Of a stretch of 64,000 nt of DNA, positions 17,701 through 23,700 are shown one piece after another (the first letter of the stretch is position 1; every line of letters begins with the position of its first letter). A program made the position numbers. The stretch lies in the NCBI RefSeq assembly GCF_056712565.1, contig NZ_CM160072.1. One strand, 5' to 3'.

Positions 17701-20700
17701 AGGTCATGTACGCGGCAAAAGGCACCCAGGCCTATGCACAAATTGGCGTCGAAAGCGCCGTAATGAGCGCCAGCCAACAGCAGTTGGTCACCATGCTATT
17801 TGATGGAGTGCTGAGCGCACTGGTTAGAGCGCGACTGTTTATGCAGGACAACAATCAGCAAGGCAAAGGTGTCTCTTTGTCAAAAGCGATCAACATCATT
17901 GAGAACGGACTGCGGGTGAGTCTTGATGAAGAGAGCAAAGACGAATTAACCCAAAACTTAATTGCTCTTTATAGCTATATGGTCAGGCGTTTGCTGCAAG
18001 CCAATTTACGCAACGATGTCTCCGCAGTCGAAGAGGTGGAAGCATTAATGCGTAATATTGCCGATGCCTGGAAAGAGTCTTTACTCTCCCCTTCTTTGAT
18101 TCAGGACCCAGTCTGATGAACAATGCACCGCATTTGTATTTCGCCTGGCAACAACTCGTCGAAAAAAGCCAGCTCATGTTACGCCTGGCAACGGAAGAAC
18201 AATGGGACGAACTCATCGCCAGCGAAATGGCGTATGTGAATGCGGTGCAGGAGATCGCACACCTGACTGAAGAGGTTGCCCCGTCCACTACGATGCAGGA
18301 GCAGCTCCGCCCGATGCTGCACCTGATTCTCGACAACGAAAGCAAGGTAAAGCAGTTATTACAGATTCGGATGGATGAACTGGCGAAACTGGTCGGTCAG
18401 TCATCGGTGCAAAAATCGGTGTTAAGTGCCTATGGCGATCAGGGCGGCTTTGTGCTGGCTCCGCAGGATAACCTCTTTTGAATCTTAATGAGCCGATGGC
18501 TCGCGAATAATCCGATTACGGCTACGCTTCTAATATTCCCCTTGAATGGAGTCGAAGAATGCGTAATCCCACGCTGTTACAATGTTTTCACTGGTATTAC
18601 CCGGAAGGCGGTAAGCTCTGGCCTGAACTGGCCGAGCGCGCAGACGGTTTTAATGATATTGGTATCAATATGGTCTGGTTGCCGCCCGCCTATAAAGGCG
18701 CATCGGGCGGGTATTCGGTCGGCTACGACTCCTATGATTTATTTGATTTAGGTGAGTTTGATCAGAAAGGCTGCATCCCTACTAAATATGGTGATAAAGC
18801 ACAACTGCTGGCCGCCATTGACGCCCTGAAACGTAATGACATTGCGGTGCTGCTGGACGTGGTAGTCAACCACAAAATGGGCGCAGATGAAAAAGAAGCT
18901 ATTCGCGTGCAGCGTGTAAATGCTGATGACCGTACGCAAATTGACGAAGAAATCATTGAGTGTGAAGGCTGGACGCGTTACACCTTCCCCGCTCGTGCCG
19001 GGCAATACTCGCAGTTTATCTGGGATTTCAAATGTTTTAGCGGTATCGACCATATCGAACACCCTGATGAAGATGGCATTTTTAAAATTGTTAACGACTA
19101 TACCGGAGAAGGCTGGAACGATCAGGTTGATGATGAACTCGGTAATTTCGATTATCTGATGGGTGAGAATATCGATTTTCGCAATCATGCCGTGACGGAA
19201 GAGATTAAATACTGGGCGCGCTGGGTGATGGAACAAACGCAATGCGACGGCTTTCGTCTTGATGCGGTCAAACATATTCCGGCATGGTTTTATAAAGAGT
19301 GGATCGAACACGTACAGGAAGTTGCGCCAAAGCCGCTGTTTATTGTGGCTGAATACTGGTCGCATGAAGTCGATAAACTGCAAACGTATATTGATCAGGT
19401 GGAAGGCAAAACCATGCTGTTTGATGCGCCGCTGCAGATGAAATTCCATGAAGCATCGCGCATGGGTCGCGACTACGACATGACGCAGATCTTCACTGGG
19501 ACGCTGGTGGAAGCCGATCCTTTTCACGCCGTAACCCTCGTTGCCAACCACGACACCCAACCGTTGCAAGCCCTCGAAGCACCGGTCGAACCGTGGTTTA
19601 AACCGCTGGCGTATGCCTTAATTTTGTTGCGGGAAAATGGCGTTCCTTCGGTGTTCTATCCGGACCTCTACGGTGCACATTACGAAGATGTCGGTGGTGA
19701 CGGGCAAACCTATCCGATAGATATGCCAATAATCGAACAGCTTGATGAGTTAATTCTCGCCCGTCAGCGTTTCGCCCACGGTGTACAGACGTTATTTTTC
19801 GACCATCCGAACTGCATTGCCTTTAGCCGCAGTGGCACCGACGAATATCCCGGCTGCGTGGTGGTCATGTCGAACGGAGATGATGGCGAAAAAACCATTC
19901 ATCTGGGAGAGAATTACGGCAATAAAACCTGGCGTGATTTTCTGGGGAACCGGCAAGAGAGCGTAGTGACAGACGAAAACGGCGAAGCGACCTTCTTTTG
20001 CAACGGCGGCAGCGTTAGCGTGTGGGTTATCGAAGAGGTGATTTAAATCCATCCCCGGCGGCAAGCCGGGGAGATTTCATTACGGCAGTGGCGTCGGTAA
20101 CGGCGCTTTATCCAGCGCGGCGGCACACTCTGCCGTCGGGCGATCCACACGCTCCATCGTCATACCATCGTACTCAATGGTGTTACCGTCACGCTCAACC
20201 TCGTACAGCTCACGTTTTACGGTAACGTTAGTGAGATCATCAGACATCAATGTCAACTTACCCGGCACGGCAATCACCCGCTGCCACTGACGGCAATCCA
20301 GGGTATCGCCCTCTTTAGTGACAATGAGGCTGCCTATCGCTTCCGGACTGACCAGCGCACGTTGCGGCCCTTTGGTCTGCCAGTAACCCGTCAGCCAGTC
20401 CGGCGCGGGGGTTTTCACGACATTGTTATAGTTTTCGACTTCGGCACAGCCCGCCAGCAACATGAGCGCACCTGCAATTGCGAGTTTTTTCATCATTCGT
20501 CCTGCATGAGAAGAAAAGAGGATTGTGGCATTAAAGCCCTGATGTCGCCAGCCTTTCCAGGCTCAGAGAGAAATTTGATCTAACCATTATTTTTGTGAAT
20601 TATTACCCCGAAAATAAATTTGCATGGTGTATGATTCGCGACTCTTGTTTCAAACCTTCTGAGTTCAGAGGCTACATTCATGTCATGGCAGCAATTCAAA

Positions 20701-23700
20701 CACGCCTGGTTGATTAAATTCTGGGCACCCATCCCTGCGGTCATCGCGGCGGGTATTCTCTCCACTTACTATTTTGGCATCACTGGCACATTTTGGGCAG
20801 TCACGGGTGAATTTACCCGTTGGGGCGGTCAGCTCCTGCAGTTGTTCGGCGTCCATGCTGAAGAGTGGGGTTATTTTAAAATTATCCATCTGGAAGGATC
20901 GCCATTAACCCGCATCGACGGAATGATGATCCTCGGTATGTTTGGCGGCTGTTTTGCCGCAGCGCTGTGGGCCAACAATGTCAAACTGCGCATGCCGCGC
21001 AGCCGTATCCGCATTATGCAGGCCATCATTGGCGGTATTATCGCCGGTTTTGGCGCACGTCTGGCAATGGGCTGTAACCTGGCGGCGTTCTTTACCGGAA
21101 TTCCACAGTTCTCGCTGCACGCCTAGTTCTTTGCCATCGCCACTGCCATTGGTTCATGGTTTGGCGCGCGCTTTACCCTGCTGCCCATCTTCCGTATTCC
21201 CGTGAAAATGCAGAAAGTTTCTGCCGCCTCACCGCTGACGCAAAAACCGGATCAGGCGCGGCGTCGTTTTCGTCTCGGGATGCTGGTCTTTTTCGGCATG
21301 CTGGGCTGGGCGCTGCTCACGGCGATGAACCAACCCAAACTGGGGCTGGCAATGCTGTTTGGCGTCGGCTTTGGTTTACTGATTGAACGTGCGCAAATCT
21401 GCTTTACTTCGGCGTTCCGCGATATGTGGATCACCGGACGTACCCATATGGCGAAAGCAATCATTATCGGTATGGCGGTAAGTGCCATCGGGATCTTCAG
21501 TTACGTACAGTTAGGCGTTGAACCCAAAATCATGTGGGCGGGACCAAACGCGGTAATTGGTGGTTTACTGTTTGGTTTTGGCATCGTGCTGGCAGGCGGC
21601 TGCGAAACCGGCTGGATGTACCGCGCGGTAGAAGGCCAGGTGCACTACTGGTGGGTCGGTCTGGGCAACGTGATCGGCTCAACGATTCTGGCGTATTACT
21701 GGGATGATTTCGCTCCGGCGCTGGCCACCGACTGGGACAAAATCAACCTGCTGAAAACCTTTGGTCCGATGGGTGGCCTGCTGGTGACATATTTGCTGTT
21801 GTTTGCAGCTCTAATGTTGATTATCGGCTGGGAAAAACGCTTCTTCCGCCGTGCGGCACCGCAGATTGCTAAGGAGATCGCATGAAAAATATCGTTCCTG
21901 ATTACCGTCTTGATATGGTGGGTGAACCCTGCCCTTATCCGGCTGTCGCAACCCTTGAGGCGATGCCGCAGTTAAAAAAAGGGGAGATCCTGGAAGTGGT
22001 GAGCGACTGTCCGCAGTCGATCAATAATATTCCACTGGATGCGCGTAATCACGGCTATACGGTGCTGGATATTCAGCAAGACGGGCCGACCATTCGTTAT
22101 TTAATTCAGAAGTAATCCCTCATTCCCGCTGTGGCCCACAGCGGGAACATCGTTACCTCTCTATCACATAGATTTTACCCGCCCCCTCTCCTATTCTTTT
22201 CAGTGTGCTCTCAGGAGGTTTCTATGTGTGGACGCTTTGCCCAATCCCAAACGCGTGAAGATTACCTCGCGTTTCTCGCGGAAGATATTGAACGCGATAT
22301 TCCCTACGATCCCGAACCTATTGGCAGATACAACGTCGCGCCGGGAACCAAAGTCCTTCTGCTCAGTGAACGTGATGAACACCTTCATCTGGATCCGGTT
22401 TTCTGGGGATATGCTCCCGGATGGTGGGATAAACCGCCGCTGATTAACGCCCGCGTAGAAACTGCCGCAACCAGTCGCATGTTTAAACCGCTCTGGCAAC
22501 ATGGTCGGGTAATATGCTTTGCCGATGGCTGGTTTGAGTGGAAAAAAGAAGGCGACAAAAAACAGCCTTATTTTATCTATCGCGCTGATGGACAACCTGT
22601 TTTTATAGCCGCGATAGGTAGCACACCGTTTGAGCGCGGTGACGAAGCCGAAGGAGTTTTAATTGTCACTGCAGCAGCAGACCAGGGCCTGGTAGATATT
22701 CATGACCGCCGCCCGCTGGTACTGTCGCCAGAAACTGCGCGGGAATGGATGCGGCAAGACATTGGTGGTAAAGAAGCCTCAGAAATCGCTACCAGAAGCT
22801 GTGTGCCAGCAAACCAGTTCATCTGGCACCCTGTGTCGCGCGCGGTGGGTAATGTTAAAAACCAGGGCGCGGAGTTAATTCAACCTGTTTGATAAGCCTG
22901 GAGATTATCTACACCTGGATGGACATCATTGTACTATGCCCCGTACATGCCCCATCACATCCTCAACATCAAAGTATTAGAGCCTTGCAAACCATTATGC
23001 GTCTCAGTTTGTCTCATCTATCTTACGCAAAAAAAATAGAACTAATATCAAGCGGCGCTATATTGCGTATTAAATAAAACCACCTCAATTACATTAATAA
23101 ATCTAAACAAATATCATGCAAATAATTTCCATGGTTATTTTTAGGCTATTTAAATTAAAAAAATAAATTATGAGTCAAACATAAATAACAATCTTTAATA
23201 TAATTTGACTACCAAATTTATATTCGTTCACAAAATAGTCATGCATTGTGTGCAATAGAAACAGTTCAGATAAAAATAGGGAACTACTTCACAATTTAAA
23301 TGAGAAACTAAAACTTACATCTTGAAATAATCTCATTGATTAGATGAATATTTGTAGTGCAGTGACATCATTTTTAAATAATAGTTCAAATAAAAGGGCT
23401 CACGATGAAAAAATTAACAGTGGCAATTTCTGCTGTAGCTGCATCAGTACTGATGGCGATGTCTGCTCAGGCAGCAGAGATTTACAATAAAGACAGTAAC
23501 AAGCTGGATCTGTACGGAAAAGTTAATGCTAAGCACTACTTCTCTTCTAACGATGCAGATGATGGCGACACAACTTATGTTCGTCTGGGCTTCAAAGGCG
23601 AAACTCAAATCAACGATCAACTGACTGGTTTCGGTCAGTGGGAATATGAATTCAAAGGCAACCGTGCTGAATCTCAAGGTTCTTCCAAAGATAAAACCCG

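What the first reader, a model, noticed from the sequence alone, without database searches (positions are those of the whole stretch)
20680..21885. yedE carries a single in-frame amber codon (TGG to TAG) in an otherwise intact 401-codon frame
The two ORF-track fragments (20680..21126 and 21202..21885) are in the same frame and together reconstruct full-length YedE, a YedE/YeeE-family membrane protein genetically linked to the TusA-like YedF. The only lesion is TAG at 21124-21126 where the recalled K-12 sequence has Trp. Downstream codons show no further decay, so this is either very recent inactivation, a sequencing error, or a gene expressed by amber suppression. yedF overlaps the yedE stop, so polarity on yedF is possible.
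Basis: partly seen in the sequence, partly recalled or inferred. Interest (0 to 1): 0.45.

Follow-up and report, generated by a model that had tools for sequence, protein, structure and literature searches.

The report
yedE amber stop at Dcm hotspot
The membrane-protein gene yedE in this E. coli genome is knocked out by one G-to-A change that turns a tryptophan codon into a stop codon, at a methylated DNA site (CCTGG) of a kind long known to mutate often, and the same change has arisen independently in many other E. coli strains, so this is an ordinary, recent gene loss.

Summary
yedE (20680..21885, +) is an intact 401-codon frame apart from TAG at 21124-21126. It differs from wild-type B2 alleles (CFT073, ZJ3920) by one base, G->A at 21125 (W149amber). 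Over 24 kb that base is the only difference from the closest ST95-type genomes.

The mutated G pairs with the methylated inner C of the bottom strand, so 5-methylcytosine deamination gives exactly CCTGG->CCTAG, as at the classic lacI amber hotspots.

The same TAG occurs in public assemblies on at least 10 different yedE haplotypes (10 of 10 examined, never TGA). The other Dcm-to-stop sites, Q320 and W10, behave alike. Five non-Dcm control codons give mostly contig-end artefacts, few true stops, and a mix of TAG and TGA.

The allele is rare. I found 0 perfect matches in about 5,370 complete genomes in each of the two main local sequence contexts.

The 148-aa product lacks the last helix of repeat 1, all of repeat 2 and two conserved cysteines, so it is most likely null. 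No suppressor tRNA lies in the window, and no RBS precedes the restart codons. A base-calling error at this methylated site cannot be excluded without reads.

Verdict: an ordinary recent pseudogene at a known hotspot, of low interest.

The parts
20680..21885 (+). yedE pseudogene: a full-length 401-codon frame interrupted by one amber codon.
   Evidence: The wild-type allele scores 620 bits on NCBIfam NF033796 selen_YedE_FdhT, against a cut-off of 350.
21124..21126 (+). In-frame amber codon TAG at codon 149, which is TGG (Trp) in wild type. The changed base is 21125, G->A.
   Evidence: this is the single difference from CFT073 and ZJ3920.
21122..21126 (.). Destroyed Dcm methylation site. Wild type is CCTGG and the window has CCTAG. 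The G at 21125 pairs with the inner, methylated C of the bottom-strand CCAGG.
   Evidence: It is the only one of ZJ3920's 161 CCWGG sites in the homologous 64 kb that is lost in the window.
20680..21123 (+). Predicted 148-aa truncated product. It retains C91 and C132. It lacks the helix that starts at about residue 141-149, the whole second repeat, and C241 and C308.
   Evidence: (262 bits, below the 350 cut-off). The exact protein is on record from 99 public contigs.
21202..21885 (+). Downstream in-frame ORF (GTG 21202 or ATG 21208) that covers the second Sulf_transp repeat. No Shine-Dalgarno precedes either start, so it is probably not translated.
   Evidence: 315 bits, below cut-off; the upstream 20 nt lack a purine-rich motif.
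21882..22115 (+). yedF, a TusA-like gene that is intact. Its ATG overlaps the yedE stop, and it has its own Shine-Dalgarno, AAGGAG, at 21871-21876. It now follows about 755 nt of untranslated mRNA, so Rho-dependent polarity is possible. This is an inference.
   Evidence: NF008242, 157 bits against a cut-off of 79. yedEF is listed as one operon in PMC4145685.
20705..20709 (.). A second Dcm site in yedE, CCTGG, intact here. Bottom-strand deamination would give W10amber.
   Evidence: Public examples show 3 TAG against 1 TGA.
21636..21640 (.). Another Dcm site in yedE, CCAGG, intact here. Top-strand deamination would give Q320amber.
   Evidence: The public Q320* allele was a genuine TAG on 5 haplotypes in all 5 loci checked at DNA level; the other 19 of 24 contigs read were collapsed as similar places.
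45393..46811 (-). dcm, the DNA-cytosine methyltransferase gene. It is an intact 472-aa ORF and encodes the enzyme that methylates CCWGG.
   Evidence: ORF; ZJ3920 annotation. The window has no difference from ZJ3920 between 42201 and 48399.
44942..45412 (-). vsr, the very-short-patch repair endonuclease gene, which normally corrects the T:G mismatch produced at Dcm sites. It appears intact.
57117..57206 (-). serU tRNA-Ser (the supD locus) with the wild-type CGA anticodon. This is negative evidence for an amber suppressor within the window.

Best explanation
This is a genuine, very recent loss-of-function allele of yedE, made by a textbook mutational mechanism.

In the wild-type gene, codons 148-149 (GCC TGG) contain the Dcm site CCTGG. 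Dcm is encoded 24 kb away in this same window. It methylates the inner cytosine on both strands. Spontaneous deamination of the bottom-strand 5-methylcytosine yields a T:G mismatch. When that mismatch escapes Vsr very-short-patch repair, it is fixed as G->A on the coding strand, turning TGG (Trp149) into TAG.

Translation then ends after 148 residues. The product lacks the last helix of the first repeat, the entire second repeat, and two of the conserved cysteines that align with the cysteines of the YeeE/TsuA transporter. The YedE membrane protein, a putative selenium or sulfur-compound transporter, is therefore abolished. yedF may in addition be reduced by polarity.

What is shown: the single base change, its position at the 5mC site, the presence of dcm and vsr, recurrence of the identical change on many backgrounds, and an excess at Dcm sites over non-Dcm sites.

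What is inferred: actual methylation of this site in this strain, deamination as the event, loss of function, and polarity on yedF.
For: - **Single change.** There is one G->A at 21125 against CFT073 and ZJ3920. It is the only mismatch in 24 kb against the top seven complete genomes.
- **Site identity.** The wild-type pentamer at 21122-21126 is CCTGG, and the changed G is opposite the methylated inner C.
- **Enzymes present.** The dcm and vsr ORFs are intact in the window.
- **Recurrence.** The exact 148-aa product is on record from 99 contigs. Ten of ten inspected loci carry TAG, never TGA, at codon 149. Counting the window there are 10 distinct yedE haplotypes, 6-38 nt apart, and the base 6 nt upstream also differs (C or T).
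- **Second Dcm site.** Q320 was a genuine TAG on 5 haplotypes in all 5 loci checked at DNA level; the other 19 of the 24 contigs read were collapsed as similar places and not checked.
- **Third Dcm site.** W10 gives 3 TAG against 1 TGA.
- **Non-Dcm controls.** W160, W210, W250, Q114 and Q192 give only 8 genuine stops in 50 places, and the three Trp codons among them show TAG:TGA of 3:4. The rest are genes cut by contig ends.
- **Pooled statistics.** Genuine stops are 15/15 against 8/50, p = 2e-9. TAG:TGA is 13:1 against 3:4, p = 0.025. Blocks with contigs over 20 kb average 16 against 1.4, about 11-fold.
- **Prior art.** Dcm-site hypermutation in natural populations is described in Cherry 2018 J Bacteriol, cited in PMC10710837.
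- **Loss of function.** Both fragments score below the NF033796 cut-off. The YeeE alignment and the Cys/TM map place C241 and C308 beyond the stop.
Against: - **No read data.** None of the public TAG-bearing contigs is the window's own clone. The closest, L073, differs at 8 sites in 12 kb. The call at 21125 in this assembly therefore has no independent confirmation.
- **Raw counts do not single out Dcm sites.** By contig count they score 99 and 144, against 2-234 for 19 other truncation lengths. The excess appears only after contig-end artefacts are removed, and that was done on small samples of at most 10 places per site.
- **Counts are not events.** Contig and block counts are not counts of independent mutations.
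- **Modest hotspot.** The synonymous deamination product of the same site (GCT148) is also absent from about 5,370 complete genomes.
- **Methylation was not measured** at this site in this strain.
Confidence: 0.68

Rival explanations
1. Sequencing or base-calling artefact. The strain really has TGG, and the A at 21125 is a consensus error. The most plausible source is Nanopore base-calling, which systematically miscalls bases at Dcm-methylated CC(A/T)GG motifs.
For: - Greig et al. 2019 (PMC6703438) found that 93-98% of Nanopore-versus-Illumina discrepant SNVs in E. coli O157 lay in CC(A/T)GG motifs. In one case, about 94 of 13,504 methylated positions were miscalled (about 0.7%).
- With about 322 methylated positions in this window, 1 miscall is within the expected range.
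- The change is private to this assembly among its clone-mates.
- The only indel against ZJ3920 is in a homopolymer, C13 against C9, which is a typical long-read error class.
Against: - Only one of ZJ3920's 161 Dcm sites is altered in the window, and none is gained.
- The other 6 SNPs are not at methylated positions and look like ordinary strain differences.
- The identical change is found in many assemblies with 9-53 kb contigs, sizes typical of short-read data (my inference from contig size). It is absent from about 5,370 complete genomes, many of them long-read based. The recurrent TAG in public data is therefore not mainly a long-read artefact.
Confidence: 0.2
2. A real mutation unrelated to methylation: an ordinary replication error or unmethylated-cytosine deamination that happened to hit a Dcm site. 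On this reading, recurrence in public data simply reflects the enormous number of sequenced E. coli.
For: - All 20 other nonsense-truncation products tested are also on record, so any nonsense allele of yedE can be found.
- The TAG:TGA contrast is only p = 0.015-0.025.
- The chance that 1 of 7 SNPs falls on a 5mC position is 3.5%, which is small but not negligible.
Against: - All three Dcm-to-stop sites show the predicted base-specific excess.
- Genuine stops are 15/15 against 8/50.
- Long-contig blocks show an excess of about 11-fold.
- The direction and position of the change match the classical mechanism exactly.
Confidence: 0.08
3. The gene is still expressed. Either it is read through by an amber suppressor tRNA or by natural read-through, or it works as two polypeptides (residues 1-148 plus a re-initiated C-terminal half) that assemble like the naturally split YedE1/YedE2 or the archaeal two-gene YedE.
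For: - The downstream frame is intact.
- Split versions of the family exist and work as a pair (PMC10812762). Archaeal YedE is split into two genes with 4-5 TM segments each (PMC5322559).
- In-frame GTG and ATG lie 76-82 nt after the stop.
Against: - An intact downstream frame is expected for any very recent mutation.
- None of the 5 tRNAs in the window has a CUA anticodon, and serU is wild type.
- The stop lies inside the last hydrophobic helix of repeat 1 (about residues 141-171), not in the inter-repeat loop, so residues 149-174 would be missing from both pieces.
- There is no Shine-Dalgarno before GTG175 or ATG177.
- There is no Rfam element or recoding signal.
- The allele never reaches appreciable frequency, with 0 perfect matches in about 5,370 complete genomes in each of the two main local contexts.
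Confidence: 0.03
4. Adaptive loss. Inactivation of yedE is positively selected in some niches, and the Dcm sites merely supply the mutations most often.
For: Many independent nonsense, start-loss and rearrangement alleles of yedE exist in public data, including human gut metagenomes.
Against: - yedE is intact and present in 5,376 of 5,426 complete genomes.
- No truncation allele examined reaches detectable frequency there.
- The pattern (rare, scattered across many unrelated backgrounds, base-specific to 5mC) is what mutation pressure without selection predicts.
- The synonymous-twin test was uninformative.
Confidence: 0.05

Closest known systems
lacI amber hotspots at Dcm sites (Coulondre, Miller, Farabaugh & Gilbert 1978; own knowledge), and Dcm-site hypermutation in natural enterobacterial populations (Cherry 2018, J Bacteriol 200:e00371-18, cited in PMC10710837)
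   Same: A G:C->A:T transition falls exactly at the inner, methylated C of CCWGG and creates an amber codon. It recurs independently. dcm and vsr are present in the host.
   Different: The lacI hotspots are CAG->TAG on the coding strand. Here the deaminated base is on the template strand, so a Trp codon (TGG) becomes TAG. The target is a chromosomal gene in wild isolates, not a reporter. The excess seen here (about 10-fold) comes from small samples of public contigs, not from measured rates.
Ordinary lineage-specific nonsense pseudogenes in E. coli, for example yodC W32* and the HPI integrase TAG in this same window
   Same: A single premature stop sits in an otherwise intact frame. NCBI's pipeline would flag it as a pseudogene with an internal stop.
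   Different: The yodC and integrase stops are shared with related genomes such as ZJ3920. The yedE stop is private to this genome within its clone.
Naturally split YedE-family transporters: YedE1/YedE2 of Cupriavidus and Sinorhizobium (PMC10812762), and the archaeal two-gene YedE (PMC5322559)
   Same: Two adjacent ORFs each cover one Sulf_transp repeat.
   Different: Natural splits fall between the repeats, and each gene has its own start signals. Here the break removes a transmembrane helix, and the second ORF has no ribosome-binding site.

Membership tests
YedE/FdhT selenium-metabolism membrane protein (NCBIfam NF033796) | Whole-protein HMM score at or above the curated cut-off of 350 bits | tested here: not met
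   The reverted (wild-type) sequence scores 620 bits. The actual products score 262 bits (148 aa) and 315 bits (227 aa), both below the cut-off. The locus is the yedE gene, but its products are not full members.
YedE/FdhT selenium-metabolism membrane protein (NCBIfam NF033796) | Genetic linkage to a TusA-like yedF immediately downstream | tested here: met
   yedF lies at 21882..22115. It matches PF01206 and scores 157 bits on NF008242 against a cut-off of 79.
YedE/FdhT selenium-metabolism membrane protein (NCBIfam NF033796) | Two Sulf_transp repeats in one polypeptide, carrying the conserved cysteines aligned with those of YeeE/TsuA | tested here: not met
   The stop at codon 149 separates C132 from C241 and C308 and removes the helix at about residues 141-171.
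YedE/FdhT selenium-metabolism membrane protein (NCBIfam NF033796) | A role in selenium (or sulfur-compound) transport | not testable with these tools
   Only comparative-genomic inference is available (PMC5322559). I found no E. coli yedE phenotype in the searched literature.
Dcm 5-methylcytosine deamination hotspot | The ancestral sequence is CCWGG, and the changed base is the inner C (or the G opposite it), as a C->T or G->A change | tested here: met
   CCTGG at 21122-21126 has become CCTAG, and position 21125 pairs with the bottom-strand inner C.
Dcm 5-methylcytosine deamination hotspot | The host encodes Dcm | tested here: met
   An intact 472-aa dcm ORF lies at 45393..46811, with vsr adjacent. 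Enzyme activity was not tested.
Dcm 5-methylcytosine deamination hotspot | The same change recurs independently, and more often than equivalent changes at unmethylated sites | tested here: met
   There are at least 10 haplotypes with TAG149. Genuine stops are 15/15 at Dcm sites against 8/50 at controls. TAG:TGA is 13:1 against 3:4. Samples are small and were not placed on a phylogeny.
Dcm 5-methylcytosine deamination hotspot | The site is actually methylated in this strain | not testable with these tools
   This needs SMRT, Nanopore or bisulfite methylome data.
Amber-suppressed gene | A tRNA with a CUA anticodon in the genome | tested here: inconclusive
   None of the five tRNAs in the window qualifies (leuZ UAA, cysT GCA, glyW GCC, serU CGA, asnT GUU). 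The rest of the genome is not available.
Naturally split YedE1/YedE2-type transporter | The break lies between the two repeats, and each half has its own translation start signals | tested here: not met
   The stop is inside a hydrophobic helix, residues 149-174 would be encoded by neither piece, and no Shine-Dalgarno precedes 21202 or 21208.

The most novel reading that the evidence does not exclude
The amber-generating Dcm sites in yedE (W10, W149, Q320) act as a built-in, methylation-driven route to frequent loss of YedE. Those losses are repeatedly selected in particular host niches, for example where uptake of a selenium or sulfur compound is toxic. On this reading the recurrent TAG alleles are adaptive rather than neutral or deleterious. 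A weaker variant is that the two halves still assemble into a working split transporter, as in archaea.
Probability: 0.05. Interest if true: 0.5.

Novelty: already known. Interest (0 to 1): 0.18.

Why it matters
For this genome it means that yedE should be annotated as a pseudogene with an internal stop, and that the strain probably lacks YedE and may have reduced YedF. That is a minor metabolic detail for an ExPEC-type strain.

More generally it is a clean natural example of the classical Dcm/5-methylcytosine amber hotspot. It also carries two practical warnings:

- A variant at the inner C or G of CCWGG is both a true mutational hotspot and a known Nanopore error site, so it needs read-level confirmation.
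- Counting truncated proteins in large assembly collections greatly overstates nonsense alleles, because contigs often end exactly at such codons.

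Tried and rejected
1. **Raw contig counts as a hotspot test.** The counts for 21 predicted truncation products did not single out the Dcm sites. Inspection showed that most control hits are genes cut by contig ends, so raw counts were dropped in favour of DNA-level inspection.
2. **Synonymous-twin selection test.** This looked for GCC148->GCT from top-strand deamination at the same site. There were 0 perfect matches in complete genomes in both local contexts, so the test says nothing about selection against the nonsense allele.
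3. **Independent confirmation of the window's own clone.** All TAG-bearing public contigs retrieved differ from the window in their flanks. L013 differs by 0.74%, and L073 by 8 sites in 12 kb. No confirmation was obtained.
4. **Suppressor tRNA.** None was found in the window, and the rest of the genome is not available.
5. **Known RNA or recoding element.** No Rfam match was found.
6. **Internal promoter or terminator.** No sigma-70-like promoter was found. The one weak terminator-like site is no more than the shuffles give. This does not inform on yedF expression.
7. **Split-protein function.** Rejected on helix position and the lack of an RBS.
8. **Cherry 2018.** The paper could not be read because it is not held. 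It is cited only through papers that cite it.
9. **Literature on yedE truncation or an E. coli yedE phenotype.** Nothing specific was found.

Full report
**Observation.** The window holds a 1,206-nt frame (20680..21885, + strand) that translates to 401 residues with one internal stop, TAG at 21124-21126. The two listed ORFs, 20680..21126 (148 aa) and 21202..21885 (227 aa from GTG), are in the same frame. yedF starts at 21882 and overlaps the yedE stop as ATGA. Base-by-base comparison shows exactly one difference from the yedE of CFT073 and of ZJ3920: A instead of G at 21125, codon 149 position 2, TGG->TAG. Against K-12 there are 27 differences, in 25 synonymous codons plus W149* and T396I, with no further lesion downstream.

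**Genomic setting.** The window is an ST95-like phylogroup-B2 chromosome segment, running from azuC through the fli genes, amyA, yedD, yedEF, yedK, more fli genes, dcm-vsr, serU and asnT to the yersiniabactin island. Over 24 kb the seven best complete genomes differ from it by one mismatch, as judged from their bit scores. For ZJ3920 the direct comparison confirms that this mismatch is the yedE base. Over all 64 kb it differs from ZJ3920 by 7 substitutions and one 4-nt change in a poly-C run. A 61-nt probe around the TAG has no perfect match in 5,368 complete RefSeq genomes in the B2 context, and none in 5,369 in the K-12 context. The allele is therefore young and private within its clone.

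The wild-type sequence around codon 149 is G-CCTGG-T, a Dcm site (CCWGG, 21122-21126). Dcm methylates the inner C on both strands. The inner C of the bottom strand pairs with the G at 21125. Deamination of that 5-methylcytosine to thymine gives CCTGG->CCTAG on the top strand, which is precisely the observed change. This is the mechanism of the classical lacI amber hotspots (Coulondre et al. 1978; own knowledge). Cherry 2018 showed that it also operates in natural populations; I could not read that paper and cite it through PMC10710837. The enzyme genes dcm (45393..46811, -) and vsr (44942..45412, -) lie in this same window. They are intact and identical to those of ZJ3920.

**Testing the hotspot idea: recurrence.** The exact 148-aa product is already in the public protein collection from 99 contigs. 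In all ten contigs I retrieved, the stop is internal and the codon is TAG, never TGA. Together with the window there are 10 distinct yedE haplotypes, 6-38 nt apart. They have different fliC alleles and different gene content after yedK, and the polymorphic base 6 nt upstream can be either C or T. One origin spread by recombination is therefore implausible.

**Testing the hotspot idea: site prediction.** yedE has four Dcm sites, and deamination makes a stop at three of them: W10, W149 and Q320. In all there are 50 possible G:C->A:T routes to a stop.

**Testing the hotspot idea: controls.** Raw contig counts for 21 predicted truncation products did not single out the Dcm sites, which scored 99 and 144 against 2-234 for the others. 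DNA inspection explained why:

- At five non-Dcm control codons (W160, W210, W250, Q114, Q192), 42 of 50 places are genes cut by a contig end or an N-run.
- Only 8 of the 50 are genuine stops, and the three Trp codons among them show a TAG:TGA ratio of 3:4.
- For W149*, 10 of 10 places are genuine stops.
- For Q320*, all 5 loci checked at DNA level are genuine TAG, on 5 haplotypes; the other 19 of the 24 contigs read were collapsed as similar places and not inspected.
- W10 gives 3 TAG against 1 TGA.

Pooled, genuine stops are 15/15 against 8/50 (p = 2e-9). TAG:TGA is 13:1 against 3:4 (p = 0.025). Collection blocks with contigs over 20 kb average 16 against 1.4, about 11-fold. These samples are small, and contigs are not independent events. 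Even so, all three predictions point the same way, and the size of the excess is similar to the classical hotspots.

**Consequence for the protein.** Wild-type YedE scores 620 bits on NF033796 (selen_YedE_FdhT, cut-off 350). The two fragments score 262 and 315 bits. Pfam sees two Sulf_transp half-domains, one in each fragment. Alignment to the solved thiosulfate transporter YeeE/TsuA (6LEO) places W149 in a conserved helix, with a tryptophan at the aligned position of YeeE. It also aligns YedE C241 and C308 with YeeE C22 and the GGC motif. The 148-aa product keeps only C91 and C132 and lacks the helix at about residues 141-171. Neither GTG175 nor ATG177 has a Shine-Dalgarno, and no Rfam element is present.

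Naturally split YedE proteins exist, namely YedE1/YedE2 (PMC10812762) and the archaeal two-gene YedE (PMC5322559). Those are split between the repeats, whereas here a helix would be missing from both pieces. The allele is most likely null.

yedF keeps a strong Shine-Dalgarno of its own (AAGGAG, 21871-21876). It now lies behind about 755 nt of untranslated RNA, so polarity is possible but untested. yedEF is treated as an operon in ExPEC (PMC4145685).

**Suppression.** The five tRNA genes in the window (leuZ, cysT, glyW, serU, asnT) all have wild-type anticodons. This includes serU, the supD locus. The rest of the genome cannot be examined.

**The main rival.** Nanopore base-callers err specifically at Dcm motifs (PMC6703438). 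At the error rates reported there (about 0.7-2% of methylated positions), one miscall among the window's roughly 322 methylated positions would not be surprising. The only indel against ZJ3920 is in a homopolymer. Against this, only one of ZJ3920's 161 Dcm sites is altered in the window. The recurrent TAG in public data sits mostly on 9-53 kb contigs, which are typical of short-read assemblies (my inference). It is also absent from complete genomes, many of which are long-read based. None of the public TAG contigs is the window's own clone, so the call at 21125 remains unconfirmed. I put the artefact reading at about 0.2.

**Selection.** The synonymous product of the same site (GCT148) is also absent from complete genomes. 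That test cannot tell purifying selection from simple rarity. yedE is present and unbroken across 5,376 of 5,426 complete genomes. All truncation alleles examined are rare and scattered, which fits mutation pressure without positive selection.

**Verdict.** The best explanation is a recent null mutation at a classical Dcm 5-methylcytosine hotspot, and it needs read-level confirmation because the same motif is a known sequencing-error site. It is an instance of a well-known phenomenon in a gene of minor and still putative function, so novelty is 'already known' and interest is low.

Noticed in passing
window 49807-49819: A poly-C run of 13 lies in the intergenic region between a porin gene and hchA. 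It is 9 in ZJ3920 and is the only indel between the two 64-kb stretches. It could be a phase-variable tract or a homopolymer sequencing error.
   Followed up: partly
window 42682-42864 (- strand), stop at about 42769-42771: yodC carries an internal TGA at codon 32 (Trp in K-12, from my own knowledge of the K-12 sequence). The stop is shared with ZJ3920, where RefSeq flags it as a pseudogene. It is therefore an older, lineage-level pseudogene, unlike the private yedE stop.
   Followed up: partly
window 58435-59697 (+), stop at 59614-59616: The integrase next to asnT, at the edge of the yersiniabactin island, has an internal TAG at codon 394 that is shared with ZJ3920. The window also has a private N361D difference at 59515.
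   Followed up: partly
window 53283: One of the 7 SNPs against ZJ3920 (T against G) lies immediately 5' of a Dcm site (CCTGG at 53284-53288). It is a transversion and not at the methylated base. Its significance is unknown.
   Followed up: no
L016-L024, L027-L034, L040-L044, L051-L059, L061-L069: Public contigs, mostly Logan and metagenome scaffolds, very often end within 0-2 nt of a nonsense-capable codon of yedE. This produces 'partial' proteins that mimic nonsense truncations. The likely cause is assembly-graph breaks at polymorphic sites. It is a trap for any protein-length-based pseudogene census.
   Followed up: partly
window 23405-26848; compare L006, L007, L010, L012, L014: A block holding an ompC-annotated porin paralogue plus ybcM, ybcL and emrE lies between yedK and fliE. 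It is present in the window and in some B2 loci but absent in many other strains. L005 has an IS200/IS605-type transposase pair (Y1_Tnp plus OrfB) inserted after yedK.
   Followed up: no
L080, L085, L086 (yedE start codon): Other independent ways of losing yedE are on record. The start codon changes from ATG to ATA in L080 and L086 and to ACG in L085. L087 and L088 have 5' rearrangements.
   Followed up: no
L013/L072 (ERZ28632806), L049, L080, L086: W149*, Q320* and start-loss yedE alleles also appear in metagenome assemblies, two of which (L080, L086) are labelled human gut. Such null alleles therefore circulate in natural communities and are not confined to cultured isolates.
   Followed up: no
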